Assembly: GCA_002347025.1 (NCBI GenBank) | Contig: DEAE01000016.1 | Span: forward strand, 6,877 to 70,876 | Origin: Acidobacteria bacterium UBA2990 | GTDB taxonomy: Bacteria; Acidobacteriota; Vicinamibacteria; Vicinamibacterales; UBA8438 | Direction: 5' to 3' | Length of the DNA: 64,000 nt | In this document: positions 37,590 through 55,475 of the stretch, piece by piece | How the letters are laid out: every line of letters begins with the position of its first letter | Numbering within the stretch: position 1 is the stretch's first letter | The notes under the pieces: generated by a model | The model's database searches: none | What the model was told of the DNA's origin: nothing | The model's input: the letters and a program-made list of their open reading frames with translations, nothing else | Position numbers and translations under genes: made by a program

Positions 37590-37631
37590 GCCCCAGTTTC
37601 AGTACAGGTGGCAGGGCGACACGGCCTTCCT

Positions 37632-41759: not shown

Positions 41760-41777
41760 AAATAGTTTCTAATGCCT

Positions 41778-43997
41778 CTACGACAAGACACGCATGCGCG
41801 AGGCTAATGCAGGAGAGATAATCGGCTCCGCGATACCACTATCAGCCCCATCTAGTGTGTCACACAGCAACTCGACCATCGATAATTCCTTCACATCTAG
41901 AGTTACAAGGGAGGTGCCCAGATGCCTTGCCAAGCGTCGAGACACATCAAGATGAGTTGGCACCAGCTCGGCTTCATTCGAAAACAAACCGATAGTCGGC
42001 ACACCATAGAAGGGTCCAAGATAGGACAGCCCACCATATGTCCCAACAAATGCTCGAGACCGGGCAATAATCGAGCTTTGAACCTCAAGATTAGTCGTTG
42101 GCGTCATTAAGTGGTCGACCGTATGAATGCCCCTGCCGACTCCAGGATCGAAATCACGATGATCATCGACGCTCAAGCCAGTGTTCAGAAGTACCACGGG
42201 CATACGATTCGCTAGCCTCTTTATCATTCGAACAACTAGCCCGCGGTTTTCAGGCGTATCAGGAAATGATGGGCGAAAATAGAAACGGACCGCTATGAAT
42301 TTCTCTGGCAGGGTCTTGGCTAGAGCGTCGCCCCCAGTCGCAGGCATGGTCCGATAGACTGAATGCTTGTTTAATAAGCTAATCGCTCCTTTCTCATACC
42401 AGTAATAGCGGAGCAAACGATACATAATCGATGGATGTATAACGTTGACGTCGGTGAGACCGCGACGATTTTTTACAAGATTGACAATAAACTCATCGAA
42501 TGTTCCAGAAACCATCTGTTTTTGGTTGCCGCCGTCCCTCCATCTAGCATCATTGCGCTTACGGAACTGTTTCAGCGACATCATGCCGAAAATATCTTCG
42601 TGGTGCTCGGCAAAGTCTCGATACCAAGCGTGTGCGCCACCACGAGATACGACAATCAGCCGATCGCGGTCGATCTCGAATTCCTTGGTAGCCCACACCA
42701 GAAACGGAATCCAGTAAAGCACCTCAAAGCCAACCTCAGACAGCCATGGTCCGACAATGATCGGCCCTTGACCGCTCGAGGCAACTTTCAAAGCCTTTCG
42801 CATCGAGAAGACTTCAGGCCCGGATGGAACTTGATGAATTTCTTCGCGAGCCAACCAGGGAATCACCCAACCACGCATCAGTGGCAATGAAACCAAAATC
42901 CTGAGCAGAACACGACCTAGTGGAAAAGTTGCTGAACGAACCAAATCGCCCAACCTCACTCTCATGTCGCGCACGAACTTACGTCTCCCTTCATCCGTAG
43001 TAGCAACCTGCCGGCATTGTCTTTCAAGTTTTCCACAGAAGCGCATCGACCTTCTGAAAACACCTCGGCACTTTACATAAATCGGCTTCAAGAATGTTGC
43101 ATGCTCAAAGAGATCGACACGCAATTGCTTAAGTTGCTGCCTGGCATGCAGCAGACCAGCCAGCCATAGGTATCTAACACCAAACCTGAATCCAACAACA
43201 CGACCGATACGTGGGCAACATTGCCCGAGAACACCGAGGTTCCAACTCAGCACCGCAGCGTGGCCAATCCACCAAGGTAAGAATGCATACAAAGGCCGTC
43301 CATCGGGAAAGAACGCACGGCGTTGTCGTCCTAGACTAAAGATAGGACCATACCATCGCCTAAACCAAAGCACTTCTGGAACCTGCTGAAATTGTCCCTC
43401 AAGGGCAAGCTCCATCAGCAATAAGCGGTCCGGCACCAGCACCCGGCGAAAAACGCCGGCTCGTTTGATGGCGTCGGCTCTCCCTAGACCATAAATCATA
43501 TTGCCAGCGGACATATGCCTCATCGTCAACCGAAAACGGGTCCGGATATCATTAAGACCTACCGTCTCGAACATCCAAGGCTTCTTCTCGGTTAAACCAT
43601 CTGGTCCAATCCGATGGTTCTGGGGATATGCCAAAACCACGCCGGGTGATTGATCGAGAGCCCTAACAAGAACCTGTAACCAACGAGGATGCCAGATGTC
43701 GTGATCACTAGCCCAGGCAAAGTATTCCGCCGCAGGCACCTGCTCCATCGCCAAGCAGAACACTCGACGCCAATTGCCGATCATGCCCAAGCGCCTAGGG
43801 TTGCGGGAATACGTGATCCGTGAATCGTGTTTAGCGTATTCCTGAACGATATTTCCAGTCCCATCGGTCGACTGGTCGTCGACACACACAAGCCGGAAGT
43901 CCAGGAATGACTGGATCAGCAGTGATTCCAACGCTTCTGGCAGATCTTCAGCATGATTGTAAAGTGGTAGCCCAATGACGACTCGGGTCACACTCAT
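41778..43997 (-). CDS. fusion: GT2 (GT-A) glycosyltransferase + hydrophobic/basic linker + family-B GT9-like domain (B1, approx 41781..42770)
   Basis: The N-terminus (VVIGLPLYNHAEDLPEALESLL.QSF.DF.LVCVDD.STDGT, then ASDHD) is GT2-like. From about residue 405, GPIIVGPWLSEVGFEVLYWIPFL ... FIAVRFY ... FVGTYGGLSYLGPFYGVPTIGLFS matches the C-terminal domains of 47652..50348 and 50345..52219. Confidence 0.7.
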   Translation of the reverse strand: MSVTRVVIGLPLYNHAEDLPEALESLLIQSFLDFRLVCVDDQSTDGTGNIVQEYAKHDSRITYSRNPRRLGMIGNWRRVFCLAMEQVPAAEYFAWASDHDIWHPRWLQVLVRALDQSPGVVLAYPQNHRIGPDGLTEKKPWMFETVGLNDIRTRFRLTMRHMSAGNMIYGLGRADAIKRAGVFRRVLVPDRLLLMELALEGQFQQVPEVLWFRRWYGPIFSLGRQRRAFFPDGRPLYAFLPWWIGHAAVLSWNLGVLGQCCPRIGRVVGFRFGVRYLWLAGLLHARQQLKQLRVDLFEHATFLKPIYVKCRGVFRRSMRFCGKLERQCRQVATTDEGRRKFVRDMRVRLGDLVRSATFPLGRVLLRILVSLPLMRGWVIPWLAREEIHQVPSGPEVFSMRKALKVASSGQGPIIVGPWLSEVGFEVLYWIPFLVWATKEFEIDRDRLIVVSRGGAHAWYRDFAEHHEDIFGMMSLKQFRKRNDARWRDGGNQKQMVSGTFDEFIVNLVKNRRGLTDVNVIHPSIMYRLLRYYWYEKGAISLLNKHSVYRTMPATGGDALAKTLPEKFIAVRFYFRPSFPDTPENRGLVVRMIKRLANRMPVVLLNTGLSVDDHRDFDPGVGRGIHTVDHLMTPTTNLEVQSSIIARSRAFVGTYGGLSYLGPFYGVPTIGLFSNEAELVPTHLDVSRRLARHLGTSLVTLDVKELSMVELLCDTLDGADSGIAEPIISPALASRMRVLS

Positions 43998-45073
43998 AGC
44001 CTAACTCGACGCCACCCCACGACATGCTTATAGCCACTCTTTGGTAAATCGGCACCAGCGTCGAGCATCTTGGGATAACTGACCGGAAGCATCTTAACTT
44101 CATGCGGCCAGTAATATTCGCCAATTATCGAACGAACATTACTCAGTTCGCGATTGTGATGTGAGCGGTCACGGTTCAGGCTATAGAGATACGGACACTC
44201 TAGCTCGTAAGCATGGCGCACGTAGGCATGCACCTGCTGAGTAGTCATTTCCTGAAACGACACCATATTTAGCATCAAGTCGACCTGCTCTGGTTTCGAC
44301 TCAGCGTGGAACGTATCAGGAAGAAACACAAAATCAAATTCTTGCCAGTTATCGAAGGTTTCGCCAGCAGGAACCTCTCCGTAGAAGCGCACTCTAGCCT
44401 CAGGAAAAGCAGCCAACAGGTAGGTAGCTGAAAAAAGAAATAACTCCGGAAAATCAGTGATCACATAAGTTACATTGGGACACAAAGTCTTTAGCTGATA
44501 CGCAAACCCACCCCACCCAGCTCCAATCTCCCATACCAACCTTCGCTCAGTACTGTCACGAAACTCCGCAAGCACCGCTCCTGAATGCAGTGCGACCAGA
44601 ACCTCATAGAACTTCAGTGTGTCGATGTTGACAAGTTCACCATCGATTTCGAATCCGAATCCCCCCAGAAGAGGGGCTTCTGGCAACCACAAGTCAGCCT
44701 GATCTAGATCGCGAAGAGCCTCTAATTTTTCAGCAAACTGCTGGCGCTTCGTATCCAGACTAACCCTGTAATGCTGGGGCAGCAATCCCGTTAAGTTGTG
44801 CGTATGGTGCCTAAGCTGAGCAATCACCAACGGCGATGCATCCAGCATGTAATCAAACCTAGACAACTCACCAGACCAATAGTCACTCGGCACATGACCA
44901 CTGGACCTTCTGTTGTGCCCAAGAGCCAATTGGGCAATCACATGTCGGCGCACTCGAAGATATGCTTGATAAGCATGGGCATCCCGAGCCACCTGCAGGC
45001 GACGCTGCAGCTCTTTTTCCGCCAGGTCTGCCTTTGGCTCAGCGCCTGTCGTCATAGCACTCCGTTCTAACAA
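43994..45073 (-). CDS. putative class I SAM-dependent (sugar O-) methyltransferase
   Basis: VWEIGAGWGGFAYQL......V.YVITDFPE resembles a methyltransferase motif I plus an acidic post-I residue. The rest is unrecognised. It is ATGA-coupled to the GT2-B1 gene. Confidence 0.5.
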   Translation of the reverse strand: MLERSAMTTGAEPKADLAEKELQRRLQVARDAHAYQAYLRVRRHVIAQLALGHNRRSSGHVPSDYWSGELSRFDYMLDASPLVIAQLRHHTHNLTGLLPQHYRVSLDTKRQQFAEKLEALRDLDQADLWLPEAPLLGGFGFEIDGELVNIDTLKFYEVLVALHSGAVLAEFRDSTERRLVWEIGAGWGGFAYQLKTLCPNVTYVITDFPELFLFSATYLLAAFPEARVRFYGEVPAGETFDNWQEFDFVFLPDTFHAESKPEQVDLMLNMVSFQEMTTQQVHAYVRHAYELECPYLYSLNRDRSHHNRELSNVRSIIGEYYWPHEVKMLPVSYPKMLDAGADLPKSGYKHVVGWRRVRL

Positions 45074-45079
45074 AAACAG

Positions 45080-46708
45080 TCACCGAGGGTTCTGGCTCTG
45101 CTCTGATTGGGTCTTAGGCACATCACCGGATGCACTTACCGCATCTAACGCCGCCTTCGTCAATTGGGGTCGCTCTATCGTCCGAGACAAGCGGGGCAAG
45201 CGCCACTCCTGCTTAAGGCGTCCCCACCTGTTAATCATGAAACGAATCAACCGTTTCTTAAGCCTCTTGCGACTAGCTGCAAGCCCAATAGCCCACAAAA
45301 ACGCCTTAAGGGGGACGAGAAGCCCTGACACAGCGTCTGGCGGAATCGGCGCTACATGGTCTAGTCCCTCCAGCGCAGTTACGAACCGTGGTGTAGCGGG
45401 TACGTCAAATCCATGAGGCCTCACAAAGGCTTCAATGAATCGCCGACTTGAATGCGATCCACCAGTATCAATTATCGACACAAGCTGAGAGACGTGCTCA
45501 TCGAGGCTCGTCGCTCGTTGTAGATGTCCGCCATTCTCAGGCAGTAGATACTGGAAATGAAGAGTGCCAGTCTGTGTTCGGTCGAAAGAAGAGTCTATGA
45601 TTGTGAATACGGGTCGGTCTTGTATGCCGGCCTCAATCATTGCCGAGGTATTGATACCCACCACGGCCATACTGTGATGGAGGGTGTCGTAGTAATCGGC
45701 CCTGTCATCATCATCAACTGGGTTGGCACCTTGGTTCGGAAATACCACAACACTTCTATAACCTGTCAAATCAACATTCTGCCAATGGTTTGAATTATAG
45801 GGATGTGGCCTAATAAGGATCCCCAGTGTGCTCAGCGTTCCCGGTCCAAGACGGATCGCTTCAATCCACCGTTTCACGAACCGAACCTCAGTATCAGGGG
45901 CGGAAATCGAGGCCGTGGACCCAACAAAAACGATAAATGCTTCATCTACCGGAAGACCAACACGGCGGCAAAATCTTTCGCGAGACAGACGAGGCTTCCG
46001 ATCAAACCAACGATCAAAACACTGTGCGCCAGTAATAGCGATCCTGTCACCAGAAGCAGCATGAAACTCAATGGCCTCTCTCCGCTGATGGTGGTTCCAC
46101 AAAGTAACCAAATCCGGTTGAATACGCATGAGCCCCTTGGTCGTTAGGTGATCCCAAGAAGCGACGCCCAAGACGCTCGGTATCCCAACCCTCCTAGCCG
46201 ATTTAATCATATCGACCTGTGGACATTGATCGGTGACAAGAGGTGAGACAATAAGCACATCTGGGCTCACCTGTTGAAGAAACGAATCGAGATTCTTGTT
46301 ACTTGGAATCGCACGTTCACAAGCATCAAGCAAGGCAAGCAAGCGGCGAGTCTTACCTTCGGTGCTCATCTGCCACCGACCCAAGAATCGTGTCAAAGGA
46401 GGCAACACCTTACGCATTCGATTCCGCAGGTAGGGTGAGTCCGCAAAGCGAGGATGCAGATAGCGGATGTAATCCACTGTCCCACGTACACCACGAGCCA
46501 CTGGCTCCCAAACATCAGCTCGAACTGGAGTCCTACCCAGCACCTCGACCGCCCGGCCTGAGGCCTTAAATGCTGCAAGTCCTTCAGCCTGCTTGTGAGG
46601 TTGATCGAAGGCAACGGACACCTGGTGGCCGCGGGTCAATAGAGCCTCGACAACCGAATCAAAATAGCGCAGATAGCCTGGATACTGGAGGACAAACAAG
46701 AACTTCAT
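45080..46708 (-). CDS. family A paralog 1: uncharacterised GT-B-like transferase (542 aa) with basic C-terminal tail
   Basis: It starts MKFLFVLQYPGYLRYF.....L..RGHQV. Other motifs are GIPSVLGVASWDHLTTKG, FIVFVGSTAS, ILIRPHPYN, VVGINTSAMIEAGIQDRPVFTI and GTLHFQYLL. It is collinear with the N-terminal half of 47652..50348, and more distantly with 53069..54586. Confidence 0.6.
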   Translation of the reverse strand: MKFLFVLQYPGYLRYFDSVVEALLTRGHQVSVAFDQPHKQAEGLAAFKASGRAVEVLGRTPVRADVWEPVARGVRGTVDYIRYLHPRFADSPYLRNRMRKVLPPLTRFLGRWQMSTEGKTRRLLALLDACERAIPSNKNLDSFLQQVSPDVLIVSPLVTDQCPQVDMIKSARRVGIPSVLGVASWDHLTTKGLMRIQPDLVTLWNHHQRREAIEFHAASGDRIAITGAQCFDRWFDRKPRLSRERFCRRVGLPVDEAFIVFVGSTASISAPDTEVRFVKRWIEAIRLGPGTLSTLGILIRPHPYNSNHWQNVDLTGYRSVVVFPNQGANPVDDDDRADYYDTLHHSMAVVGINTSAMIEAGIQDRPVFTIIDSSFDRTQTGTLHFQYLLPENGGHLQRATSLDEHVSQLVSIIDTGGSHSSRRFIEAFVRPHGFDVPATPRFVTALEGLDHVAPIPPDAVSGLLVPLKAFLWAIGLAASRKRLKKRLIRFMINRWGRLKQEWRLPRLSRTIERPQLTKAALDAVSASGDVPKTQSEQSQNPR

Positions 46709-47655
46709 CTCACCGCCTCTGCCGGCACCGCACTACCCGGTTGGCCCTGCTCATCAACAGGCACCAGCATAAGGTCGAAACGAGTGAACTTACCGAACAC
46801 ATTCTTAATACGGTTCCCAGGCGCCTGATACGCCAGAGCTGAAGTCAGGGTCGGAAAATTCGAAGCTACGTCCTCGCGGAGAAACACCGCATTAACCCGT
46901 TCACTCGTAACTAACCGGTAGCCTTTCCGACGTCCCAAGCGGACCATCGCCTCAAGTGAGGCACCACGATAAGCTCGAGTTGGAGCAGTCTTGATAAAGA
47001 AATTTGGATCATAGGGAATCGTTGCCGAGACAGTAGGACCTAATAAATAGTTGTATTCAATGATAACCACCCTTGGTCGGCAGATAGTGAGGGCATCCCA
47101 AAGCCAAAAATCATTACCGTCAACATCTAGACTCAGGAGATCAATCTCACCTCGGAAACCAGCCTCCGCCAACACAGTATTGATATTCTCTCGAGACATC
47201 CGATGGGATTCCGTCAGAACATCCTCACTGGCGAAACGAACAGCCACCTTTTCAACTGCGGCTGGCTGTGCATCGATCATTAAACCGCTCCAACCGCACT
47301 CCTGAGCAAGAAACCCGGAGTTTCCTCCGTTGACTCCACAACCAATCTCAACGAACCGGCTATTCGTGATACCCACCTGCTTGAAAAGTTCGACCAACAA
47401 CCCGTCTTCCTCATTCTGGGACGTAACACCAAATCGACGAGAGCGAAGAAGTTTTCTTGGTGGCAAGTCAACATCTTCGAGAAACATCCTGCGAGCGACC
47501 GCACTCACAGTTCGATGCGTCTTCTGGAGTTCAACCATCGAACGTTCGAGACGTTCGAGACGTTCGAGTACCTTGTCCAGGCGGTCAGCAAGATCCGCAC
47601 CAGTCGACCTGCCAAGAATTCGCTCCCAAAGCTTTGTCAAATTCATCAGTCTCAC
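46705..47655 (-). CDS. family C paralog 2: coiled coil + FkbM-like methyltransferase-like domain
   Basis: It shows SQNEEDGLLVELF..VG.TNSRFVEIGCGVNGGNSGFL....GWSGLMIDA ... IDLLSLDVDGNDFWLWDAL. The N-terminus contains LERLERLER. It has 4-nt overlaps with both neighbours. Confidence 0.6.
   Translation of the reverse strand: MRLMNLTKLWERILGRSTGADLADRLDKVLERLERLERSMVELQKTHRTVSAVARRMFLEDVDLPPRKLLRSRRFGVTSQNEEDGLLVELFKQVGITNSRFVEIGCGVNGGNSGFLAQECGWSGLMIDAQPAAVEKVAVRFASEDVLTESHRMSRENINTVLAEAGFRGEIDLLSLDVDGNDFWLWDALTICRPRVVIIEYNYLLGPTVSATIPYDPNFFIKTAPTRAYRGASLEAMVRLGRRKGYRLVTSERVNAVFLREDVASNFPTLTSALAYQAPGNRIKNVFGKFTRFDLMLVPVDEQGQPGSAVPAEAVR
47542..47568. repeat. perfect 3 x 9-bp tandem repeat (acgttcgag) inside family C paralog 2
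   Basis: 47542..47550, 47551..47559 and 47560..47568 are identical. On the minus strand the unit reads CTCGAACGT and encodes LER-LER-LER in the coiled-coil segment. Confidence 0.95.
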
Positions 47656-50348
47656 AAACGATCTTGGGTAACCGTTGCCAACCCATGGTCAACGGCCGAC
47701 CGAGCACCGTTAGGCATTGAGGCCACGTCGCCTCCATCAGGCTGCATCAGGACATGGCTCAGCAAATCGAGCCCTTCTACATCAAGGGCTACATAGGATC
47801 CACGTTTTAACTTCGCTGCAACTCTGTACATTAAGTCCAAGTGGTGGGGTGCAACATGAGCCGGGCTGGAATAGAACGCCAACGACCTTACCCCATAGAA
47901 CGGAGCGAGGTAAGACAGTCCTCCATAGTTGCCTATGAAGGCCTGAGCTCCACAGATTACCTTGGTCTGGACGTCGAGGTTATTACTAGGCTCAAGAAGG
48001 TGATCAATTGGGTGCACCTTTCTTGTAACGTCCGGCTTTAGATCCCAATGATCATCAAGATCATAACCAGGGTTTAACAGCACGACATCCGTAGTCTCCG
48101 TTATCCGCGTGAGCAACTTTCGAACGAAGATGACATTGGCTTCGGTCTCTGGGAACGCCGTATTGTGATAGAACCGAACCGCAATATACCTGTCAGGCAA
48201 TTTAGCCGAGATATCTGATATATCGAGGCTCGGCAGGCGCTTAAAAGATGCGAAATTCTCGATAAGATTGATTGATGTACGGCTCTTCCAATAGGGATAA
48301 AAAAGTCTATACATATACATTGGGTGAAACATCTGCACGTCTCTACGCTGAATGGACACCTTTACAAGTTTGACAACCTCTCGCTCAAAATCCGTGAAAG
48401 CTCTCTGCTTCATCTGTCCAGACGCGATCTGCTCTTCATTTCTCTTTTTCAACTGCTCAGGTGTGAAAAAATCAAACACATCGACGTAGTGATTACCTAT
48501 GTTCCTGTACCAGGAAGCTACTCCGCCACGAGATACGATAATCATGCGTTCTTGATCAAATTCTCGATAAGTCTTCACCCAATTCAAGAACGGCAACCAA
48601 TAAAGCAGTTCGAACCCAACCTCGCTCAGCCACGGCCCCACAATCAGCGGGCGGTCAATCTTGTGCATCTTGTCAATGACGCGGGGAATGGCCACCATCT
48701 CTTCTGTTGGCTCATCAGGATTCATTCGCGACATAACTCGCGGAACCATATATTTCTTAACGAACCCTTTTGCCGGACGCCAACGCAACACAAGATCAAG
48801 AAGATCGAACAATGGTTTAAGTAGAAACCCGCTAACAGTCAGTGGCCTTAGCTTGCGCTGCCGTTTCACCCGCACCCGTGCAAAGTGGCGTACCACCTTC
48901 AGCCCGAGAGCCGCCGGCCACAAAACACACCTAAACAGATATAGGGGCAGTCCAAGGCGCTCAGGCGAACCAGGAGAAAGCCGTCCTAGAGCTTCAATCC
49001 CGTCGGCTATGAGCGGCGTTGCTGGTACAGCTAAGCCTTCTGGGCGAACGAACCCCTCCAGAAAGCCTTTTCGCCTCGCGTCCTCCTTGAGTCCTTCAGT
49101 GAAAGCATGACTCAGTTGTTCGACATGGCGATCAAATCCTCTGGCGTTCTGAGCCAGGCCACCACCAACTTCAAGCAAATAGTGAAAATGCAGGGTACCC
49201 TCTTGAGTTCCAGCGTGTTCCTCACTTTGAATGGTGAAGACCGGTCGACCCACAACTCCGGCTTCAATTTGAGCACTCGTGTTTACGCCGACCACCATTG
49301 CACTATGAAAGAGGGAATCAAAAAAATCGTTCTTCGAGACCTCGTCTACTGGATTGGCACCACCCAATGGCCACACTACAACATCGTTAAACTCAGCTAG
49401 ATCATACTTTTGCCATGGTTGCACATTCTGGGGATGGGGCCGAACTAGCACAGCCGCTTCGCGCACCCTGACGTCGGTCGACGTTCGCAAAGCTCGGACC
49501 CAGCGATCGACGAACGCCGCTTCATTCGGAGCGATAAACCCAGAGGAACAAACATACAGAATGAAAGGCTGGTCAACTGGTAATCTGACCTTGCTACAGA
49601 ACTCCTCTCTCGTGGTGCTCGGCTTTCGATTGAACCACTGGTCGTAGACAGGAGCCCCAGTCACCAGGACATCAGCAGCATCTACACCATGCATCTCAAC
49701 TGCCTCGTGTTTCTGGAACTCGTTCCAGACATACACGCGGTCCGGTAAGAGCCGTATCAGGCCCTTGTTTGTCAGGTTGTCCCAACTGTGAACGCACAAG
49801 CCAGTCCGGATGCCACGTGCTTGAGCACTCTTGATGTAGTCAACCTGATCTGAGCCCAGATCAACCAGTGGAGTCACCAACACAACATCTGGCTCTTGTG
49901 CAGCGATGAGCCCATCAACCCAAGAATCGGTAGGAATCGCCTGCTCAATCCACAACAGCAACTTCCAAAGCAAACGCCGGCCAGTCGCGGAGTCCACTAG
50001 GGGCAACCCGCTGAACCAAGCGATTGTTCCGGGAAGCCGTGTCTCGGCTCGTTCCCTAAGCTTTTCAGCGATCTGATACTCAGGCGCACGATAGCGCAGA
50101 TAGTCAGCCCACAGCCTTACGCCGCGAGCAAGCCCCAACCAATAGCGATACGGGGTCTTCTTTGTCAGCTCAGAATAGGTAACGCTTGGGCAATCGTCGG
50201 TCAGCTCCCAAAGCAAGCGGCCGTCACCCAGGCGGTCTTGCATCACGAACGACAAATGTATGTCGTGCCCCCGAGAAGCTAACTCACGCACGGTGGAGCC
50301 AAAATTTCGGAGTGTTCCTGGATGACGCATCGAAAAGAAGATCTTCAT
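47652..50348 (-). CDS. fusion: family A domain (A2, approx 48930..50348) + family B GT9-like domain (B2, approx 47655..48653), 898 aa
   Basis: The start is reset to the ATG at 50348 (MKIFFSMRHPG, matching MKFLFVLQYPG of A1), which forms an ATGA with the stop of the Wzt-like gene. The A motifs are GIRTGLCVHSWDNLTNKG, LVRPHPQN, VVGVNTSAQIEAGVVGRPVFTI and GTLHFHYLL. The B motifs are RPLIVGPWLSEVGFELLYWLPFL, YIAVRFY and FIGNYGGLSYLAPFYGVRSLAFYS. Confidence 0.7.
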   Translation of the reverse strand: MKIFFSMRHPGTLRNFGSTVRELASRGHDIHLSFVMQDRLGDGRLLWELTDDCPSVTYSELTKKTPYRYWLGLARGVRLWADYLRYRAPEYQIAEKLRERAETRLPGTIAWFSGLPLVDSATGRRLLWKLLLWIEQAIPTDSWVDGLIAAQEPDVVLVTPLVDLGSDQVDYIKSAQARGIRTGLCVHSWDNLTNKGLIRLLPDRVYVWNEFQKHEAVEMHGVDAADVLVTGAPVYDQWFNRKPSTTREEFCSKVRLPVDQPFILYVCSSGFIAPNEAAFVDRWVRALRTSTDVRVREAAVLVRPHPQNVQPWQKYDLAEFNDVVVWPLGGANPVDEVSKNDFFDSLFHSAMVVGVNTSAQIEAGVVGRPVFTIQSEEHAGTQEGTLHFHYLLEVGGGLAQNARGFDRHVEQLSHAFTEGLKEDARRKGFLEGFVRPEGLAVPATPLIADGIEALGRLSPGSPERLGLPLYLFRCVLWPAALGLKVVRHFARVRVKRQRKLRPLTVSGFLLKPLFDLLDLVLRWRPAKGFVKKYMVPRVMSRMNPDEPTEEMVAIPRVIDKMHKIDRPLIVGPWLSEVGFELLYWLPFLNWVKTYREFDQERMIIVSRGGVASWYRNIGNHYVDVFDFFTPEQLKKRNEEQIASGQMKQRAFTDFEREVVKLVKVSIQRRDVQMFHPMYMYRLFYPYWKSRTSINLIENFASFKRLPSLDISDISAKLPDRYIAVRFYHNTAFPETEANVIFVRKLLTRITETTDVVLLNPGYDLDDHWDLKPDVTRKVHPIDHLLEPSNNLDVQTKVICGAQAFIGNYGGLSYLAPFYGVRSLAFYSSPAHVAPHHLDLMYRVAAKLKRGSYVALDVEGLDLLSHVLMQPDGGDVASMPNGARSAVDHGLATVTQDRL

Positions 50349-52219
50349 GACAAGACCTGATCTAACCAAGCACTGAGTCGCGTCGCGGTAAGTTCACTAG
50401 CTTTCTCAAGATCGACGCACTCATCCGTAACTGTCTTCACCATGGAGCGCAAGACCCGAACATGATGCGAAAAAAGTCTGCCTTCCTTTTCAAAAATCAT
50501 CAAAGTCGGCACCCGGTAGAAAGGAGGCAATAAGGAGATGCTACCGAATGTCCCAATGTAGGCACGGGCCCCGGCTATAACCTTAGCTTGCTCCCTCAAC
50601 TGGCTCTCAGATCGGCCTGGCGCTGGCACGACCTGAACATTGTTCGAATCAGAGTTCCCCTGTAGCCGAGGAACAAAACCATCAGAATCGACCAACCTAA
50701 CCGGTAGACGTTTGGCTAGATCGAGCGATATCCAATTCATTAAATCGCGGTGCGGCTTAGTATCCTCAAAAGAAGAGCTAAACCGGAAACCTAACACCGC
50801 GTAAGGCTGAGCTTCCTTTTGGATTGACTCGGTCGTAGCTACCGGCGGAGTCAACGGCTCATAACGCGAATGCTCATCCAACCACGAATCTGGCAATGAT
50901 CCATCCCAAACCCTCGAGCATGCATTGAAGAGAAGAGAGGGATGGACTACGGCATAGTCCTTCGTATCAATCCGCTGTGCGACACATTCAAGCAGCTCGG
51001 TATCAAAATTCGATATCTGCTTCTGTTTCCAGGACCCAGTCTCTTTGATTCGGTCTCGATTTCGATGCTCAAACACATCAAATGAAACTAGGTCGCACAC
51101 ATCGATATAAGATCCCACAAGGCTGCCATACCACTCATCAACCCGTCCGCGCGACACCGCAACAACAGGCCCAGGCGGCCTACCGAATTGACTAAACATC
51201 CAGGCAACAAACGGTCGCCAATAAAGCAATTCCAGTCCCACATCAGAAAGGCACGGACCAATAATGATTGGCCTGTGTCCGTCCCAAGCCTGAGTCACAT
51301 GATGGGACACATCAGGAGCAACACCTGTTCTTTCAAGACTGCGCACAGCCCGGCGAACGATTTCGCCAGGTTCTAAGCGAACAGGGGCATCAGGTGACCG
51401 GCTACCATCCTCGACAAGCCGAGATTGCACTTGGTCTAGGCGATTGAGCCGATAAACAAACTTGTCATAAACCGGTAGGACCATCTGAGGACTACCCTCA
51501 TAAACAACATCGCCTTCATGCAAGATCATCGCGCGTGAGAAGTTCGCTTGCTCTGGAAGACCTGCCGCTACTGACGATAGAATGAGATTCGCGCCCTGCT
51601 CTAGGACCAGCCCTACACGATCCGCCACCCGTCTCGACACCGGATCGTCACCGGCCCTCGGAAAACCGTCAAAGATACGAATGTCCTTCGGAACAACTAG
51701 AGCTGACACCAACCCCAATTGACCTCCACGCTCCTTCGGCAGGTCGATGAGCTTAGTGTCCCTCTCATCTGACAACCCTGTAATATCAAGCACCTCTTCA
51801 CAGCACTTACCGGAAAGTTCGGGCTCGACGCCATGAATGGCGGTAGCAAGCTGCACACACTCCCAAACCGTCAAAAAAGCAACCATTCCCACAGGTCTGG
51901 CACCCACCAGACCCACGCGGCCACCAGCATGGACATGCCCCGCATCGGCACGCAACATCCCCGTCAACAGCTTTGCGATAGTCGTCTTGCCAGAACCTGC
52001 CGCTCCGAGAACAAGGACGTTCTCACCTTCTCGCATCGTGACGGAAAATCCTCGGATCGCCACCCACTCATCAGGTCGGAGACGATTCAGCGACCGCTTA
52101 CCAAAACGAAAAATATCTGCGAACACATGTCGACGTCCCAGCTCAAAATCAGAGGTAAATACCTTGGCAAGAGCTTTACATTCAAGCAACGTCCTGGGCC
52201 TAGCCGTGCTCATCATCAC
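50345..52219 (-). CDS. fusion: Wzt/TagH-type ABC nucleotide-binding domain with degenerate catalytic motifs (approx 51425..52219) + family B GT9-like domain (B3, approx 50348..51274)
   Basis: The Walker A motif LGAAGSGKTT is intact. The Walker B region reads IRIFDGFPRAGD, against the subfamily pattern hhhhDE.L.VGD, so Gly185 replaces the catalytic Glu. The H-loop reads LILSSV, against VSH. The signature region reads KERGGQ. The C-terminal part (RPIIIGPCLSDVGLELLYWRPF ... YIGTFGSISLLPPFYRVPTLMIFE) is homologous to B1 and B2. Confidence 0.7.
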   Translation of the reverse strand: MMMSTARPRTLLECKALAKVFTSDFELGRRHVFADIFRFGKRSLNRLRPDEWVAIRGFSVTMREGENVLVLGAAGSGKTTIAKLLTGMLRADAGHVHAGGRVGLVGARPVGMVAFLTVWECVQLATAIHGVEPELSGKCCEEVLDITGLSDERDTKLIDLPKERGGQLGLVSALVVPKDIRIFDGFPRAGDDPVSRRVADRVGLVLEQGANLILSSVAAGLPEQANFSRAMILHEGDVVYEGSPQMVLPVYDKFVYRLNRLDQVQSRLVEDGSRSPDAPVRLEPGEIVRRAVRSLERTGVAPDVSHHVTQAWDGHRPIIIGPCLSDVGLELLYWRPFVAWMFSQFGRPPGPVVAVSRGRVDEWYGSLVGSYIDVCDLVSFDVFEHRNRDRIKETGSWKQKQISNFDTELLECVAQRIDTKDYAVVHPSLLFNACSRVWDGSLPDSWLDEHSRYEPLTPPVATTESIQKEAQPYAVLGFRFSSSFEDTKPHRDLMNWISLDLAKRLPVRLVDSDGFVPRLQGNSDSNNVQVVPAPGRSESQLREQAKVIAGARAYIGTFGSISLLPPFYRVPTLMIFEKEGRLFSHHVRVLRSMVKTVTDECVDLEKASELTATRLSAWLDQVLS

Positions 52220-52253
52220 CTAACCAGTAGCATCAACAAACGGTCACCCATCC

Positions 52254-53072
52254 TCAACGCCTTGCCTGAGGCAGGCTCTGCACTGCCAGGGGCATAGCTC
52301 GTTGAAAAAACAAGTAGATGCCCCCAGCCAGCACAGCGAGAAGGGCAACACACATGAGGAAAAGCAAATCATTATCCGTGGCCCCACTAACAAGCCACCG
52401 CCGAGGAATGTTAATTAGATAAGTCAGTGGATTCCAACGGTTAACCACAGCCAGTAACCCCGTTTCTGGTTCCGCGTACAAAATAGGGGCCGTCCACAAC
52501 AGGACCGGAGCAAGCATTGGCAAACCGAAGCGAAAATCAAGGTAAACGAAGGTCAAGGGAACAAAACAAGCACCCACAATTAACCCACCCAAGACGATCA
52601 CGGGCAAGGCAAACACCCCCAGAGGTAGCGTCAAGGGTGGCGAAGCACTCGTCAGTAGGTAGGCAGATAAGAATAGCGCCCCATAAAACATCGAGTTAAA
52701 CAACACAAGTCCAGCACCGGCCGTCAGCACTGCCTCAGGACGCAATGGACCATCAACGAATGTCCGGCGCAGTCGTCTGCCGAGCCACTGCGGAGCGATG
52801 ACGGCGTCCCAGAACATCTGCCACAGTAAGAATCCGCTCAAAGCGTAAAGCACATACTCACCTGCACTCATATCACCACCGAAACCAAAGGCATTGCCTA
52901 CTAGAATCAACGGTAATACCGCCATCAAAGGACGAGCAATAGCCCATACGTATTTCAGAAAAGCCTGCCGATAGCGCGCGCGAAAATCCCTCAGGAAAAG
53001 CAGTCGTCCGACGAAAACTAATTGCCTCACACTCGATTGCTGGGTCGACTGACATCTCCAATGCTTATTCAT
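52254..53072 (-). CDS. ABC-2-type polysaccharide exporter permease (Wzm/TagG/KpsM-like)
   Basis: F.RDFRARYRQ.FL...WA...PL, followed by 6 hydrophobic segments, is typical of ABC-2 permeases. The start is reset to the ATG at 53072 (MNKHW..), which forms an ATGA with the stop of 53069..54586. The track start at 53120 would overlap by 52 nt. Confidence 0.75.
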   Translation of the reverse strand: MNKHWRCQSTQQSSVRQLVFVGRLLFLRDFRARYRQAFLKYVWAIARPLMAVLPLILVGNAFGFGGDMSAGEYVLYALSGFLLWQMFWDAVIAPQWLGRRLRRTFVDGPLRPEAVLTAGAGLVLFNSMFYGALFLSAYLLTSASPPLTLPLGVFALPVIVLGGLIVGACFVPLTFVYLDFRFGLPMLAPVLLWTAPILYAEPETGLLAVVNRWNPLTYLINIPRRWLVSGATDNDLLFLMCVALLAVLAGGIYLFFQRAMPLAVQSLPQARR

Positions 53073-54586
53073 GATTCGTTGCCCCACGCTGTTGTCTGTC
53101 GCAACGTACGGAGGACCCACCCAGCCAGACGTTCACTCGCACCACCAGCAGGAACTCCACAACAACGATGGACCAATTCACATCTCGCTTCCTCATCCTT
53201 ACTTGGGTCCACCAGATAGGAACGTACTAACTCGATTAGATCGCCTGGGCTTGTTGCAATACGAGCCGCTTGAGTCTCAACTACCGCCTGGTAGTGCTCG
53301 TACTGATAATACCGACTAATTGACAATGGTAAATCCAAGTTCGGCACCTCATCGTAGCCAACATTGACCACGGGAGTATCGAACAGGGCTGCTTCTATTG
53401 TCGTAGTCGATGCGAAATTCACGATGACGTCACTGTGCGCTAAAGTGCCAGCCAGACGACGACGGTCGCCGATGTCCGGCGTGAAAGCATCAAAGTAATG
53501 TACGCCAGGCCCACACTGAAGCCGGTGGAACGGCTTTTCCACAAACACCCGGTGCCCATCATGAAGACCTTGATACGACTCAGTGGCATCCCTGGGGTGG
53601 ACTCGCACAAGCAGCTGGACATCAGTCCCCAACTTGCTGTCTCTTGCCGCTGCAACCAAGGTTTCCACGACTTTCTCTGTGGTTGGGTACACCGGGGCAG
53701 GGGCGCTTGCTAAAGTCACTAATGGCCTTGCCGGGTCAGCCCCAAAAGCTCTAAAAAACTCCTGCCTCGTCGGAATGGTGTCACCCTGGCTATACACATC
53801 AAACGACACTGGTCCTGTGACCGCCACGCGATCGGGATGAAACCCGTGATAACGAACCGCCTCGGTCCGCATGGTCTCATTCCATACAGCCAAATGGTCA
53901 ACAGGGAGAACGGTGTGGTATTTGGATGAGAGATTGTCCCACCCAAGATCGACTCCCATTTGGGGCACACCAAAGGCCTTGGCTGCATAAATAAGCGGTA
54001 CCTCCAGGGGAAGGAATCCTGCAGTGGAAGTCACCAACATTACCGGCCGATAGGTTTCGAATAGACTTCGGTAACCTTCTAGATTAGTTATAGCCTGCGC
54101 TAGACGAAACCACCTACTCCGCGATAGCGGTAGGCGGCAAACGACTGCCTTGATCGCACTTAACAATTTCCGTCCACGCCACCCATCGAGCAATCTGGCC
54201 CGATCACGCTGAAGGCGAACCGCACGCAGCTTAGACTCCAGAAGAAATTTCTCGCTCAGGATAGAATCGACCACCCGCTCGAGGATTCCTGGTCTGAACT
54301 CAGGTAACGGCAGACAAATCACACCGGCACATTTGAGTTCGTTGGCCAGCCGGTCGTCTGAAGCGAACGGCGACAAGACTGCAATTCTTAGACTCGGCCG
54401 CGCATCAAGCAGGAAACGGAGAAACGACCCGCGAGCTAGGTCGGCCACATGGTGACCAGCCGGCACTGACAAAAAGATCGTCGACTGGCCGACTCGTGGA
54501 CCAGACAAAGAGTGATCTAATAGCCCTTCTATCGTCTCTTTCGTTGGTCCTATCGGCAAGCTCGAAGTGACCATCATAGGATGCAA
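53069..54586 (-). CDS. family A paralog 3 (divergent): uncharacterised GT-B-like transferase, 505 aa
   Basis: GVPQMGVDLGWDNLSSKY, AVWNE..R.EAV.YHGF..DRV.VTGPV.FD, LLVRVHPRD and VIVNFASTTTIEAALFDTPVVNV are collinear with the A1/A2 motifs. Confidence 0.55.
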   Translation of the reverse strand: MHPMMVTSSLPIGPTKETIEGLLDHSLSGPRVGQSTIFLSVPAGHHVADLARGSFLRFLLDARPSLRIAVLSPFASDDRLANELKCAGVICLPLPEFRPGILERVVDSILSEKFLLESKLRAVRLQRDRARLLDGWRGRKLLSAIKAVVCRLPLSRSRWFRLAQAITNLEGYRSLFETYRPVMLVTSTAGFLPLEVPLIYAAKAFGVPQMGVDLGWDNLSSKYHTVLPVDHLAVWNETMRTEAVRYHGFHPDRVAVTGPVSFDVYSQGDTIPTRQEFFRAFGADPARPLVTLASAPAPVYPTTEKVVETLVAAARDSKLGTDVQLLVRVHPRDATESYQGLHDGHRVFVEKPFHRLQCGPGVHYFDAFTPDIGDRRRLAGTLAHSDVIVNFASTTTIEAALFDTPVVNVGYDEVPNLDLPLSISRYYQYEHYQAVVETQAARIATSPGDLIELVRSYLVDPSKDEEARCELVHRCCGVPAGGASERLAGWVLRTLRQTTAWGNES

Positions 54587-54587
54587 G

Positions 54588-55297: not shown

Positions 55298-55475
55298 GGC
55301 TCCCGGCCAACTTTGCCGACGAATTTTCTCGGTGAAGCCTCTGAGAGGGAAAACTGATCAGGGGATACAGGGGTAACAGCCAACAAGTTGAACAAATTTT
55401 ACAGTATGGCACGGCGGCGATCAATATGCATCACCTGCTGGTATCACTACCTAGGACACCGACAGTCTGGCCAAA

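What the first reader, a model, noticed from the sequence alone, without database searches (positions are those of the whole stretch)
45080..50348. A1 - C2 - A2::B2 block: tandem family A paralogs bracketing a family C gene, all joined by 4-nt overlaps
The order on the minus strand is A2::B2 (898 aa), then C2 (316 aa), then A1 (542 aa). The junctions at 47652..47655 and 46705..46708 are both ATGA-type overlaps. The A2::B2 start itself overlaps the stop of the Wzt-like gene (50345..50348).

A1 and A2 are collinear over about 470 aa and share long identical strings: PVFTI, GTLHF.YLL, FVRP.G..VPATP.

- A1 continues into a Lys/Arg-rich tail (..SRKRLKKRLIRFMINRWGRLKQEWRLPRLSR..).
- A2 continues through a similar basic, hydrophobic segment (..VVRHFARVRVKRQRKLRPL..) into the B2 module.

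This looks like a duplication followed by a fusion or fission event. It suggests that A, B and C act as a stoichiometric complex. The basic tails could be membrane-anchoring amphipathic helices.
Basis: partly seen in the sequence, partly recalled or inferred. Interest (0 to 1): 0.7.

Follow-up and report, generated by a model that had tools for sequence, protein, structure and literature searches.

The report
Paired orphan glycosyltransferases flanking a methyltransferase
Three tightly packed genes in a long surface-sugar operon of an uncultured marine Acidobacteriota bacterium most likely encode two anciently diverged sugar-adding enzymes, one fused to a second such enzyme, with a methyl-adding enzyme between them; this is ordinary sugar-chain machinery built from enzyme families that nobody has studied.

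Summary
A1 (542 aa) and the first ~500 aa of A2::B2 (898 aa) are 41% identical (E 9e-114). The gene order and two ATGA overlaps are real. The third junction is GTGA and depends on a GTG start; a public gene call starts C2 9 nt later.

What the parts are:
- **A:** a GT-B-fold family with no Pfam or PDB sequence match. It has an invariant RPHP motif and weak profile similarity to Tannerella pseudaminic/legionaminic-acid transferases.
- **B:** a second complete GT-B domain, closest in fold to GT9 heptosyltransferases.
- **C2:** a distant FkbM-like methyltransferase with a helical N-terminus.

The block lies in a ~34 kb operon with a WecA-like initiator, a Wzm permease, a Wzt-like protein, a NeuB-type sugar-acid pathway and several methyltransferases.

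The duplication is ancient. A1-type and A2-type form separate clades across Acidobacteriota, and relatives fuse them in the same order (A::B::A, A::A). The A::B fusion is widespread.

I read the block as modules of a membrane-associated glycan polymerase plus a modifying enzyme. A fixed A/B/C complex is not shown, since C was not found fused in the 360 homologues whose domain order I censused. Donor sugars remain uncertain.

A side finding is that the Wzt-like protein carries a degenerate B domain where a carbohydrate-binding module normally sits.

The parts
45080..46708 (-). A1: single-module family A protein (542 aa), predicted GT-B-fold transferase of the A1-type clade
   Evidence: ORF. It is 41% identical to A2 over 500 aa. 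It has no Pfam hit and a weak hit to the NCBIfam BFO_1060 glycosyltransferase model (7e-6). It keeps all invariant family residues, including W185-D186, K191, R300-H302-P303 and E359. It falls in the A1-type clade.
45272..45337 (-). A1 residues 458-479: hydrophobic helix (VSGLLVPLKAFLWAIGLAA)
   Evidence: Kyte-Doolittle 19-residue mean of 1.78, the only segment of A1 above 1.5. The position is conserved across the family.
45083..45271 (-). A1 residues 480-542: Lys/Arg-rich tail with an amphipathic stretch
   Evidence: Net charge +12 with 17 K+R over residues 476-542. Hydrophobic moment 0.62 for RLIRFMINRWGRLKQEWR.
46705..47655 (-). C2: distant FkbM-like SAM methyltransferase with a helical, possibly coiled-coil, N-terminus (316 aa from GTG; 313 aa if it starts at the ATG at 47646)
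   Evidence: PF05050 at 23.7 bits against a 22.7-bit cut-off. Five of 8 family members hit PF05050. It is 46% identical to C1. A third paralog lies at 26564-27628.
48969..50348 (-). A2 domain of A2::B2 (residues 1-460): family A GT-B module of the A2-type clade
   Evidence: AF2 model with mean pLDDT 84.9. Foldseek hits to GT-B enzymes at E about 1e-10: UDP-GlcNAc 2-epimerases, WaaG and TagF. Clade placement.
48705..48968 (-). Linker of A2::B2 (residues 461-548): two hydrophobic helices (465-483, 503-521) separated by a strongly basic stretch
   Evidence: Kyte-Doolittle values 1.53 and 1.58, and net charge +14 over residues 480-545. Predicted helices 467-499, 505-521 and 524-538 have low pLDDT. 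The same sequence forms the N-terminus of some B proteins called as separate genes.
47745..48704 (-). B2 module of A2::B2 (residues 549-868): second complete GT-B domain, GT9-like in fold
   Evidence: AF2 model with pLDDT 88.4 and pTM 0.85. The best Foldseek hits are GT9 enzymes 3tov, WaaC, WaaF and TibC at E 3e-7 to 1e-4. It is 42% identical to the B module of GT2::B and 26% to the B domain of the Wzt-like protein. It carries the near-invariant motifs GPWLSEVGFELLYW, SRGG, DDHxD and GTYGG.SYL.
50345..52219 (-). Wzt-like::B (context): ABC-type nucleotide-binding domain fused to a divergent B domain. Its stop overlaps the A2::B2 start.
   Evidence: Partial ABC_tran hit and a B-domain match at E 1e-32. 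The B domain lacks DDHxD and HxxDHL in all orthologues examined. The nucleotide-binding domain motifs are degenerate.
41778..43997 (-). GT2::B (context): GT-A family 2 glycosyltransferase fused to a B module
   Evidence: PF00535 at 2e-23. The B module is 42% identical to B2 over 309 aa.
43994..45073 (-). NanM-like sugar O-methyltransferase (context). Its gene directly follows A1, and in relatives it is fused to A1-type proteins.
   Evidence: TIGR04371 at 2.8e-24, 86 bits against a 44-bit cut-off. The A::NanM fusion is seen in P0026 and L002.
53069..54586 (-). A3 (context): third, more distant family A paralog
   Evidence: 27% identical to A2 over 260 aa, E 1e-14. BFO_1060 glycosyltransferase model at 2e-12 and TIGR04396 at 5e-7.

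Best explanation
The block encodes three enzymes of one long operon for a surface glycan. The operon has the outward form of a Wzm/Wzt (ABC transporter-dependent) pathway and belongs to an uncultured marine Acidobacteriota (Vicinamibacterales-like) bacterium.

**A2::B2** is a two-module glycosyltransferase.
- Its N-terminal A module has a GT-B fold and an invariant RPHP motif. It is distantly related to the TagB/TagF-like nonulosonic-acid transferases of Tannerella.
- A roughly 90-residue hydrophobic and basic helical linker follows, and probably sits on the cytoplasmic face of the membrane.
- Its C-terminal B module is a second GT-B domain that resembles GT9 heptosyltransferases.

**A1** is a single A module followed by the same kind of hydrophobic helix and basic tail.

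**C2** is an FkbM-like SAM-dependent methyltransferase.

A1 and A2 belong to two old, distinct orthologous groups that travel together. Relatives fuse them in the same order (A2-type, B, A1-type). They most likely add different residues or linkages to the same undecaprenyl-linked polymer, as complementary polymerase modules do in other ABC transporter-dependent systems. C2 and the neighbouring NanM-like enzyme would methylate the product.

**Shown:** the paralogy, the folds, the conserved motifs, the fusions and the conserved gene order.

**Inferred:**
- transferase activity;
- donor types, with a CMP-linked nine-carbon sugar acid for A and the product of the locus's rfaE-domain-II-like nucleotidyltransferase for B;
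- membrane association through the linker and tail;
- any physical complex.
For: **Paralogy and age**
- A1 and A2 are 41% identical, E 9e-114.
- A1-type and A2-type form two clean clades.
- There is no DNA-level repeat between the two genes.

**Family A**
- It has no Pfam or PDB sequence match.
- The AF2 model (pLDDT 84.9) matches GT-B enzymes at E about 1e-10, including TagF.
- All three window paralogs keep W-D, K, W-N, T-G, R-x-H-P and E.
- Matches to the BFO_1060 glycosyltransferase model are A3 2e-12, A1 7e-6 and A2 1e-5. Knock-outs showed that family to be needed for Pse/Leg transfer, and it carries an HP motif (PMC5420450).

**Family B**
- The model (pLDDT 88.4) matches GT9 enzymes best.
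- Two of 30 members give weak PF01075 hits.
- The motifs are strongly conserved.

**Modularity**
- The 360 fetched homologues comprise 128 A::B, 106 B alone, 103 A alone, 16 A::A, 5 A::B::A, 1 A::A::A and 1 A::NanM.
- A::GT2 and A::methyltransferase fusions also exist.

**Conserved gene order**
- KdsC-like, A3, Wzm, Wzt::B, A::B, C, A1, NanM, GT2::B, CTP::MT, a 315-aa protein of unknown family, NeuB is kept in L006. Parts of it are kept in L001, L002, L004, L005, L009 and L012-14.

**Operon content**
- WecA-like initiator, GT4 enzymes, NeuB, a CMP-sugar synthetase, a KdsC-like phosphatase, an rfaE_dom_II-like nucleotidyltransferase fused to a methyltransferase, and an O-antigen-ligase-like protein.

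**Precedent**
- In characterised systems polymerase modules are variably split or fused and work as complexes (PMC11231755).
Against: - No member of family A or B has been assayed, so activity is inferred from fold and context only.
- The BFO_1060 matches are far below the family cut-off (25-47 bits against 200).
- The best structural hits for A are UDP-GlcNAc 2-epimerases, not transferases.
- TM-scores for B against GT9 structures are modest, about 0.45.
- A relative with the A::B::A fusion has no NeuB gene within 10 kb and sits next to amino-sugar genes (L016). An A1-type gene also occurs alone in an unrelated neighbourhood (L017). A fixed CMP-sugar-acid donor is therefore not established.
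- The Wzt-like nucleotide-binding domain of this locus has degenerate catalytic motifs. Even the export route is less certain than the gene names suggest.
Confidence: 0.62

Rival explanations
1. Family A modules are TagF/TagB-like polyol-phosphate or sugar-phosphate transferases. They would use a CDP-activated donor made by the locus's cytidylyl/adenylyl-transferase-like enzyme and build a teichoic-acid-like phosphodiester polymer, not glycosidic bonds from a CMP-sugar acid.
For: - The HP motif is shared with TagF. TagF appears among the Foldseek hits (3l7m, E 3e-8).
- One of 20 family A members gives a weak PF04464 hit (0.014).
- The Tannerella relatives were themselves described as having a TagB-like domain.
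- The nucleotidyltransferase at 40644-41759 also weakly matches glycerol-3-phosphate cytidylyltransferase (2.3e-6).
- The A::B::A locus L016 has no NeuB gene nearby.
Against: - The nucleotidyltransferase matches rfaE domain II far better (8e-20) than TagD.
- PF04464 is not significant for A1, A2 or A3.
- The window and most syntenic loci carry a full NeuB, CMP-synthetase and phosphatase set that needs a transferase.
Confidence: 0.2
2. A recent local duplication, followed by fusion or fission, produced A1 and A2::B2. A, B and C then form one obligatory stoichiometric complex, which is reflected in the 4-nt overlaps.
For: - Real paralogy.
- Overlapping stop and start codons.
- C lies between the two A genes in L001 and L006 and in related positions in L004, L005, L009 and L012.
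- Complexes are documented in model systems (PMC11231755).
Against: - A1-type and A2-type are old, separate clades, and the genes share no DNA similarity.
- A::B is conserved across distant MAGs.
- Overlaps occur throughout the operon, and one of the three depends on a doubtful GTG start.
- C is not fused to A or B in any of the 360 censused homologues and is absent between A::B and A1 in L002.
Confidence: 0.12
3. Family A is not a transferase. It would be a GT-B-fold nucleotide-sugar 2-epimerase or hydrolysing epimerase (NeuC-like) that supplies the hexosamine or hexose precursor for the NeuB-type synthase.
For: - The top Foldseek hits are UDP-GlcNAc 2-epimerases, including NeuC (E 1e-10 to 1e-9).
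- Two of 20 members give weak PF02350 hits (0.036).
- No recognisable NeuC-type epimerase was found in the cluster.
Against: - The locus has three diverged paralogs, and relatives have tandem A::A and A::A::A fusions as well as fusions to GT2, B and methyltransferase modules. This is typical of polymerising transferases, not of a soluble precursor enzyme.
- The conserved hydrophobic and basic membrane-type tail points the same way.
- The only significant sequence-profile link is to a glycosyltransferase family.
Confidence: 0.05

Closest known systems
Tannerella forsythia nonulosonic-acid (Pse/Leg derivative) transferases Tanf_01245 / TFUB4_00887 / BFO_1060 (NCBIfam NF046086)
   Same: - This is the only significant sequence-profile link for family A (A3 2e-12, A1 7e-6, A2 1e-5).
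- The match covers the WD..K / WN / TG..FD region.
- Both have an HP motif and a predicted GT-B/TagB-like fold.
- Both sit in loci that make a NeuB-type nine-carbon sugar acid.
   Different: - Scores are far below the family cut-off (25-47 bits against 200).
- A proteins carry a C-terminal hydrophobic and basic tail.
- A proteins occur as several paralogs per locus and are often fused to other modules.
- A proteins act in a Wzm/Wzt-type polymer operon, not in protein O-glycosylation.
TagF/TagB CDP-glycerol glycerophosphotransferases (PF04464; PDB 3L7M)
   Same: GT-B fold, an HP-type motif in the C-terminal domain, peripheral membrane association, polymerising role and frequent multi-module architectures (Foldseek E 3e-8).
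   Different: No significant Pfam match for A1, A2 or A3. The donor is unknown.
GT9 heptosyltransferases WaaC / WaaF / TibC (PF01075)
   Same: - These are the best structural matches to the B module (E 3e-7 to 1e-4).
- The B motif GTYGG.SYLAPFYGVP occupies the place of the GT9 C-terminal glycine-rich nucleotide-binding loop (my reading against general knowledge of GT9).
- The locus encodes an rfaE-domain-II-like nucleotidyltransferase.
   Different: - No significant sequence similarity.
- TM-score is only about 0.45.
- B has its own near-invariant DDHxD and HxxDHL motifs.
- B occurs fused behind GT2, A or Wzt-like domains.
Multi-module polymerases and coiled-coil terminators of ABC transporter-dependent O-antigen assembly (E. 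coli O9a WbdA/WbdD; Klebsiella O12 WbbB, O4 and O7)
   Same: - Und-P-linked synthesis started by a WecA-type enzyme.
- Catalytic modules that are variably split or fused.
- Methyltransferase-type modifiers with helical or coiled-coil regions.
- A Wzm/Wzt pair (PMC11231755).
   Different: - The module families differ: A, B and C here, against GT4, GT1, GT25, GT99 and GT137 there.
- The Wzt-like protein carries a GT-B-like B domain instead of a beta-sandwich carbohydrate-binding module.
- Its ATPase motifs are degenerate.
FkbM-family methyltransferases (PF05050)
   Same: C2 passes the Pfam gathering score narrowly (23.7 against 22.7 bits). It shows the VE.G.G..GGNS and S.D.DG.D motifs.
   Different: The match covers only 65 residues, and three of the 8 relatives miss it. 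The N-terminal helical extension is not part of the family.

Membership tests
GT-B fold glycosyltransferase superfamily (A module) | Two Rossmann-like alpha/beta domains with an inter-domain cleft | tested here: met
   The AF2 model has pLDDT 84.9, and residues 1-460 show alternating beta/alpha elements in two halves. Foldseek probability is 1.00 against many GT-B structures, with TMt 0.58-0.69.
GT-B fold glycosyltransferase superfamily (A module) | Demonstrated glycosyl (or phospho-sugar) transfer | not testable with these tools
   This requires an enzyme assay. UDP-GlcNAc 2-epimerases share the fold and are the top hits.
BFO_1060 family nonulosonic-acid transferases (NF046086) | Whole-protein score at or above the curated cut-off of 200 bits | tested here: not met
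   A1 scores 25.3, A2::B2 24.6 and A3 47.0 bits. They are distant relatives at best, not members.
Bacterial sialyltransferase-type motif set (HP and D/E-D/E-G, as used in PMC5420450) | HP motif in the C-terminal domain | tested here: met
   R300-x-H302-P303 is invariant in 20 aligned family A sequences, including A1, A2 and A3.
Bacterial sialyltransferase-type motif set (HP and D/E-D/E-G, as used in PMC5420450) | D/E-D/E-G motif upstream of HP | tested here: inconclusive
   No invariant D/E-D/E-G is seen in the alignment. The conserved upstream acidic residue lies in S-W-D-(H/N)-L-T. Without a structural superposition the equivalence cannot be judged.
TagF-like glycerophosphotransferases (PF04464) | Significant match to the Pfam model | tested here: not met
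   There is no hit for A1, A2::B2 or A3 at E <= 0.01. One of 20 members hits at 0.014.
GT9 heptosyltransferases (PF01075) (B module) | Significant match to the Pfam model | tested here: not met
   There is no hit for B2. Two of 30 members hit at 0.028 or weaker. A profile search of PDB sequences gives no hits.
GT9 heptosyltransferases (PF01075) (B module) | GT9-like three-dimensional fold | tested here: met
   The top Foldseek hits are 3tov, 2h1f, 1psw, 2h1h, 6dfe and 4rap, at E 3e-7 to 5e-4 with probability 1.00, but TM-score is only 0.40-0.48.
FkbM methyltransferases (PF05050) (C2) | Score at or above the Pfam gathering threshold | tested here: met
   23.7 bits against a 22.7-bit cut-off, E 6e-5, over residues 141-205 only. 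Five of 8 relatives match. This is marginal.
ABC transporter-dependent (Wzm/Wzt) glycan assembly locus | Polyprenyl-phosphate initiating transferase, cytoplasmic glycosyltransferases, ABC-2 permease and an ABC ATPase in one cluster, with no Wzx flippase | tested here: inconclusive
   - Present: a WecA-like PF00953 protein, several glycosyltransferases, a KpsM-like permease (5e-6) and a Wzt-like protein.
- Doubts: the Wzt-like protein lacks the catalytic Glu, the H-loop His and a normal signature motif. A Wzy_C/ligase-like protein is present.
- Wzx was not specifically searched for beyond the Pfam scans of the cluster genes.

The most novel reading that the evidence does not exclude
In this clade the B domain at the C-terminus of the Wzt-like protein is a catalytically dead copy of the polymerase's own GT9-like module. 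It has lost DDHxD and HxxDHL in every orthologue examined. It would take the place of the usual beta-sandwich carbohydrate-binding module. It would either recognise the finished, methylated chain end or dock the A/B polymerase modules directly onto the exporter, so that A2::B2, A1, GT2::B and the transporter form one membrane-bound assembly line. [quoted passage not shown] That would imply a non-canonical energising or gating mechanism.
Probability: 0.2. Interest if true: 0.7.

Novelty: new variant of a known kind. Interest (0 to 1): 0.42.

Why it matters
- **Two large enzyme families are unstudied.** Families A and B are large and mostly environmental. Family A has 7,692 clusters at 50% identity (E <= 1e-3), and B has more than 2,000 clusters at 90% identity. 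Neither has a Pfam model, a solved structure or an assayed member. They appear to be the main building enzymes of surface glycans in Vicinamibacterales-type Acidobacteriota, an abundant soil and ocean group whose cell-surface chemistry is almost unknown.
- **The fusions guide experiments.** The natural fusions (A::B, A::B::A, A::A, A::NanM, GT2::B) show which modules to express together.
- **The transporter-fused B domain is a possible new coupling mechanism.** It would be a new way of linking glycan synthesis to export, if it holds up.
- **The block itself is conventional.** It is glycan-assembly logic carried out by uncharacterised families, not a new kind of system.

Tried and rejected
- **Sequence searches against solved structures.** Searches for A1, A2::B2 and profiles of families A, B and C found nothing meaningful.
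- **Pfam at lenient thresholds.** Members of A and B gave only sub-significant hints: GT4 N-terminal domain, Epimerase_2 and Glyphos_transf for A, and Glyco_transf_9 for B.
- **Locus search with an alignment.** The single-protein query worked.
- **DNA repeat search.** A search across 45080-50348 for traces of a recent duplication found only one out-of-register 18-mer.
- **RNA and signal scans.** An Rfam scan of 39000-57500 found nothing. Promoter-like and terminator-like sites were no more frequent than in shuffled sequence, which fits one long operon.
- **Plus-strand ORFs inside the block.** The ORFs at 45803-46147, 47330-47671, 48324-48824 and 48661-49110 were treated as antisense artefacts of long minus-strand genes. 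They were not searched separately.
- **GT137 Kdo transferase of Klebsiella O4.** I considered it as a relative and rejected it. It is described as having a non-GT-B topology, whereas A and B match canonical GT-B structures.
- **Literature.** A search for a Wzt fused to a glycosyltransferase-like domain found no description in the held library.
- **Not possible with these tools.** I could not extract model coordinates to check whether D186 and H302 face the cleft. I could not run multimer predictions.

Full report
**1. The observation**

The three minus-strand ORFs are present as described.
- A1 is 45080-46708 (542 aa).
- C2 is 46705-47655 (316 aa from a GTG).
- A2::B2 is 47652-50348 (898 aa from the ATG).

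Homologues of A2::B2 start at the same MKI(F/L)F and cover the whole 898-aa form. The upstream TTG at 50369 is therefore not the start.

I read the junctions directly.
- The Wzt-like stop and the A2::B2 start share ATGA at 50348-50345.
- The C2 stop and the A1 start share ATGA at 46708-46705.
- The A2::B2 stop and C2 share GTGA at 47655-47652, and only if C2 begins at the GTG.

An ATG lies 9 nt downstream. An independent gene call on an identical public contig uses it, giving 313 aa and no overlap. Four-base overlaps also occur at several other junctions of the same operon, so they mark a tightly packed operon and not this trio in particular.

The two genes share no DNA-level repeat.

**2. What family A is**

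A1, A2::B2 and a third paralog, A3 (53069-54586; 27% identical to A2 over 260 aa), have no Pfam match. They have no relative among PDB sequences, even with a family profile.

The AlphaFold model of A2::B2 has mean pLDDT 84.9. Residues 1-460 form two Rossmann-like halves. Foldseek matches them to GT-B enzymes at E about 1e-10, including UDP-GlcNAc 2-epimerases, WaaG and TagF.

An alignment of 20 family members, including all three window paralogs, shows these invariant residues:
- W185-D186 and K191, in S-W-D-(H/N)-L-T-x-K-G;
- W204-N205, T226-G227 and D232;
- R300-x-H302-P303;
- E359, in N-T-S-A-x-I-E-A.

All three paralogs therefore look catalytically intact.

The only significant sequence-profile link is to NCBIfam NF046086, the BFO_1060 family glycosyltransferase model (A3 2e-12, A1 7e-6, A2 1e-5). 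All three scores are far below the 200-bit family cut-off. Knock-out and complementation in Tannerella forsythia showed that family to be required for adding pseudaminic or legionaminic acid derivatives. It was described as having an HP motif and a TagB-like GT-B domain (PMC5420450).

Family A is large. A profile search finds 7,692 clusters at 50% identity with E <= 1e-3, and 2,392 with E <= 1e-30. Of the 240 best homologues listed, the sources name all but two either not at all or only as hypothetical proteins. The two exceptions, P0026 and P0155, are named after a fused or extra domain.

**3. What module B is**

The C-terminal 350 residues of A2::B2 recur in two other window proteins.
- The GT2 protein at 41778-43997 carries a copy that is 42% identical.
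- The Wzt-like protein at 50345-52219 carries a copy that is 26% identical, E 1e-32.

More than 2,000 database proteins carry the module, and many are called as stand-alone genes of 330-430 aa. None has a Pfam domain.

The module modelled alone has pLDDT 88.4 and pTM 0.85. It is a complete GT-B domain. Its best structural matches are family 9 heptosyltransferases (3tov, WaaC, WaaF, TibC), at E 3e-7 to 1e-4 and probability 1.0, but with TM-scores of only about 0.45. Sequence searches do not reach GT9 significantly.

The family has very strong motifs: GPWLSEVGFELLYWIPF, SRGG..WY, FPDT..NR, DDHxD, H...HL, NL.VQT and GTYGG.SYLAPFYGV. This level of conservation suggests an enzyme and not a scaffold.

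**4. What C2 is**

C2 narrowly passes the Pfam threshold for the FkbM methyltransferase domain. Five of eight relatives match that domain. The alignment shows a glycine-rich SAM-type motif and the S.D.DG.D motif.

The N-terminal 50-90 residues are helical and heptad-like. I infer this from the sequence and from weak matches to coiled-coil proteins.

The window has three family C paralogs: C2, C1 (55476-56441; 46% identical) and one at 26564-27628.

**5. Context**

The block lies in one minus-strand cluster running from about 22.3 to 56.4 kb. Its genes are as follows:
- an O-antigen-ligase-like protein;
- a WecA-type initiating transferase;
- GT4 enzymes and AsnB;
- a transketolase-like enzyme;
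- a CMP-sugar-acid synthetase, PseF-like but below the cut-off;
- an aldehyde dehydrogenase and an SDR;
- a NeuB-type synthase, at 288 bits against a 400-bit cut-off;
- a conserved 315-aa protein of unknown family;
- an rfaE-domain-II-like nucleotidyltransferase fused to a methyltransferase;
- GT2::B and a NanM-like sugar O-methyltransferase;
- A1, C2 and A2::B2;
- Wzt-like::B and a KpsM-like permease;
- A3, a KdsC/Kdn-9-P-phosphatase-like enzyme and C1.

dTDP-sugar genes lie just beyond the cluster. No Rfam family matches the region, and promoter-like and terminator-like sites do not exceed shuffled expectation.

Related loci all come from Acidobacteriota or Vicinamibacterales metagenome-assembled genomes, several of them marine.

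**6. Evolution of the pair**

A neighbour-joining tree of 59 A domains splits cleanly into two clades.
- The A1-type clade holds the stand-alone proteins, the last A of A::B::A and the second A of most A::A proteins.
- The A2-type clade holds the first A of A::B, A::B::A and most A::A proteins.

A1 orthologues are 63-73% identical to A1 but about 40% identical to A2. The ~890-aa A::B architecture is conserved: 116 of the 120 listed clusters are 873-916 aa, at 55-100% identity.

A census of 360 fetched homologues gives 128 A::B, 106 B alone, 103 A alone, 16 A::A, 5 A::B::A, 1 A::A::A and 1 A::NanM. A::GT2 and A::methyltransferase fusions also exist.

The A::B::A proteins reproduce the window's gene order without C. 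The order Wzm, Wzt::B, A::B, C, A1, NanM, GT2::B, CTP::MT, 315-aa protein, NeuB is fully kept in L006. Variants of it are kept in L001, L002, L004, L005, L009 and L012-14.

A NanM-like gene directly follows an A-family gene in L001, L003-L006, L009-L012 and L014. It lies about 80 nt downstream in L013, is fused to A1 in L002, and sits next to an A gene as a NanM::GT2 fusion in L008. The one exception is L017, where an A1-type gene stands alone in an unrelated neighbourhood with no NanM-like gene.

C is absent between A::B and A1 in L002. It is not fused to A or B in any of the 360 censused homologues.

**7. The tails**

Each A domain is followed by a hydrophobic helix.
- In A1 the helix spans residues 458-479 (Kyte-Doolittle 1.78).
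- In A2 it spans residues 465-483 (1.53), with a second helix at 503-521 (1.58).

A strongly basic, partly amphipathic segment comes next, with net charge +12 in A1 and +14 in A2. The pattern is conserved in position across the family.

In A2 the segment forms the low-confidence helical linker to B. The same linker sequence forms the N-terminus of some B proteins called as separate genes.

A highly charged 60-residue tail is unlikely to cross the membrane, and both GT-B domains need cytoplasmic donors. An in-plane or hairpin association with the inner face of the membrane is therefore the most plausible reading. This is an inference and has not been tested.

**8. Mechanism proposed**

The fold, the motifs, the modular fusions and the operon content all fit one model. 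A2::B2 and A1 would be complementary catalytic modules of a membrane-associated polymerase acting on an undecaprenyl-linked glycan. C2 and the NanM-like enzyme would be O-methyltransferases acting on the product.

The locus encodes two unusual donor pathways: a NeuB-type CMP-sugar acid and the product of an rfaE-II-like nucleotidyltransferase. It also encodes two orphan GT-B families, one HP-type and one GT9-like. Pairing A with the CMP-sugar acid and B with the ADP- or CDP-linked donor is the simplest assignment.

That assignment rests on association only. L016, which has an A::B::A fusion, has no NeuB gene within 10 kb and sits beside amino-sugar genes. L017 has an A1-type gene in an unrelated neighbourhood.

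Characterised Klebsiella and E. coli systems show that such modules are variably fused or split. They also show that the modules assemble into complexes and that terminators carry coiled coils (PMC11231755). This gives precedent for an assembly but does not show one here.

**9. Side finding: the Wzt-like protein**

In every orthologue examined (the window, L001, L002, L006, L007 and L008), the B domain fused to the Wzt-like protein has lost DDHxD, HxxDHL and NL. It keeps the structural core motifs.

The nucleotide-binding domain is also atypical.
- The signature motif is degenerate (KERGGQ, KLDTRY).
- Walker B reads IFDG, without the catalytic Glu, in all orthologues but one.
- There is no H-loop His.

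More distant loci (L012-14) instead have a canonical 422-aa Wzt with a normal signature motif, a normal Walker B and a CBM-like tail. They also have a stand-alone B that keeps LDEHSD.

No paper in the held library describes a Wzt fused to a glycosyltransferase-like domain.

**10. Verdict**

It is wrong about timing and unsupported on the stoichiometric A/B/C complex.

The system is a conventional kind of glycan-assembly operon built from large, uncharacterised enzyme families. Its transporter subunit is unusual.

Noticed in passing
window 50345-52219 (-); L001 566-2458, L002 4038-5969, L006 8972-10924, L007 2278-4326, L008 2550-4478: The Wzt-like protein carries a divergent B (GT9-like) domain where Wzt proteins normally have a carbohydrate-binding module. 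That domain has lost the DDHxD, HxxDHL and NL motifs in all orthologues examined. It looks like a dead copy of the polymerase module.
   Followed up: partly
window 51350-52219 (-), N-terminal ~290 aa of the Wzt-like protein: The ABC nucleotide-binding domain is degenerate. Walker A is present. The signature motif reads KERGGQ (KLDTRY or KDRLRY in orthologues). Walker B reads IFDG, without the catalytic Glu, in five of the six sequences. No H-loop His is evident. No other ABC ATPase gene was found in the 64 kb window.
   Followed up: partly
L012/L013/L014 7862-9995 and 12661-13644: More distant relatives (58% identity at A::B) have a canonical 422-aa Wzt with a normal signature motif, a normal Walker B and a CBM-like tail. 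They also have a stand-alone B gene that keeps LDEHSD. The Wzt::B fusion is therefore clade-specific. It may have replaced both a canonical Wzt and a free B.
   Followed up: partly
window 40644-41759 (-): A fusion of an rfaE-domain-II-like sugar-phosphate nucleotidyltransferase (8e-20) with a class I methyltransferase, conserved in L004, L005, L006, L009 and L012. It suggests an unusual, possibly methylated, nucleotide-activated donor.
   Followed up: no
window 38466-39560, 35230-36006 and 54588-55088 (-): A NeuB-type synthase, a PseF-like CMP-synthetase and a KdsC/Kdn-9-P-phosphatase-like enzyme all score below their equivalog cut-offs. The nine-carbon (or eight-carbon) sugar acid made here is of unknown type and may be made through a phosphorylated intermediate.
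   Followed up: no
window 33196-38447 (-): A transketolase-like enzyme, an aldehyde dehydrogenase and an SDR sit inside the glycan cluster. This is unusual content that may build a non-standard sugar precursor.
   Followed up: no
window 26564-27628 (-) and 55476-56441 (-): Two further family C (FkbM-like) paralogs give three per locus, matching three A and three B modules. L003 also has three C genes in tandem (14018-17327).
   Followed up: partly
window 39700-40647 (-): A 315-aa protein with no Pfam or NCBIfam match, conserved next to NeuB in L005 and L006 (50-71% identity).
   Followed up: no
L017 10001-11611: An A1-type gene (59% identical to A1) lies alone among MMPL, PQQ and unrelated genes, with no NanM-like, B or Wzm/Wzt genes within 10 kb. 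Family A is therefore not confined to these operons.
   Followed up: partly
L016 16203-22834: The locus with the A::B::A fusion is flanked by two DegT-type aminotransferases, a dehydratase/epimerase, a GFO/IDH oxidoreductase and a hexapeptide acetyltransferase. This is a diamino-sugar pathway and not a NeuB pathway.
   Followed up: no
window 13690-20623 (-): A Na+-translocating NADH:quinone oxidoreductase (Nqr) operon with ApbE lies directly downstream of the glycan cluster on the same strand. It is unrelated to the finding.
   Followed up: no
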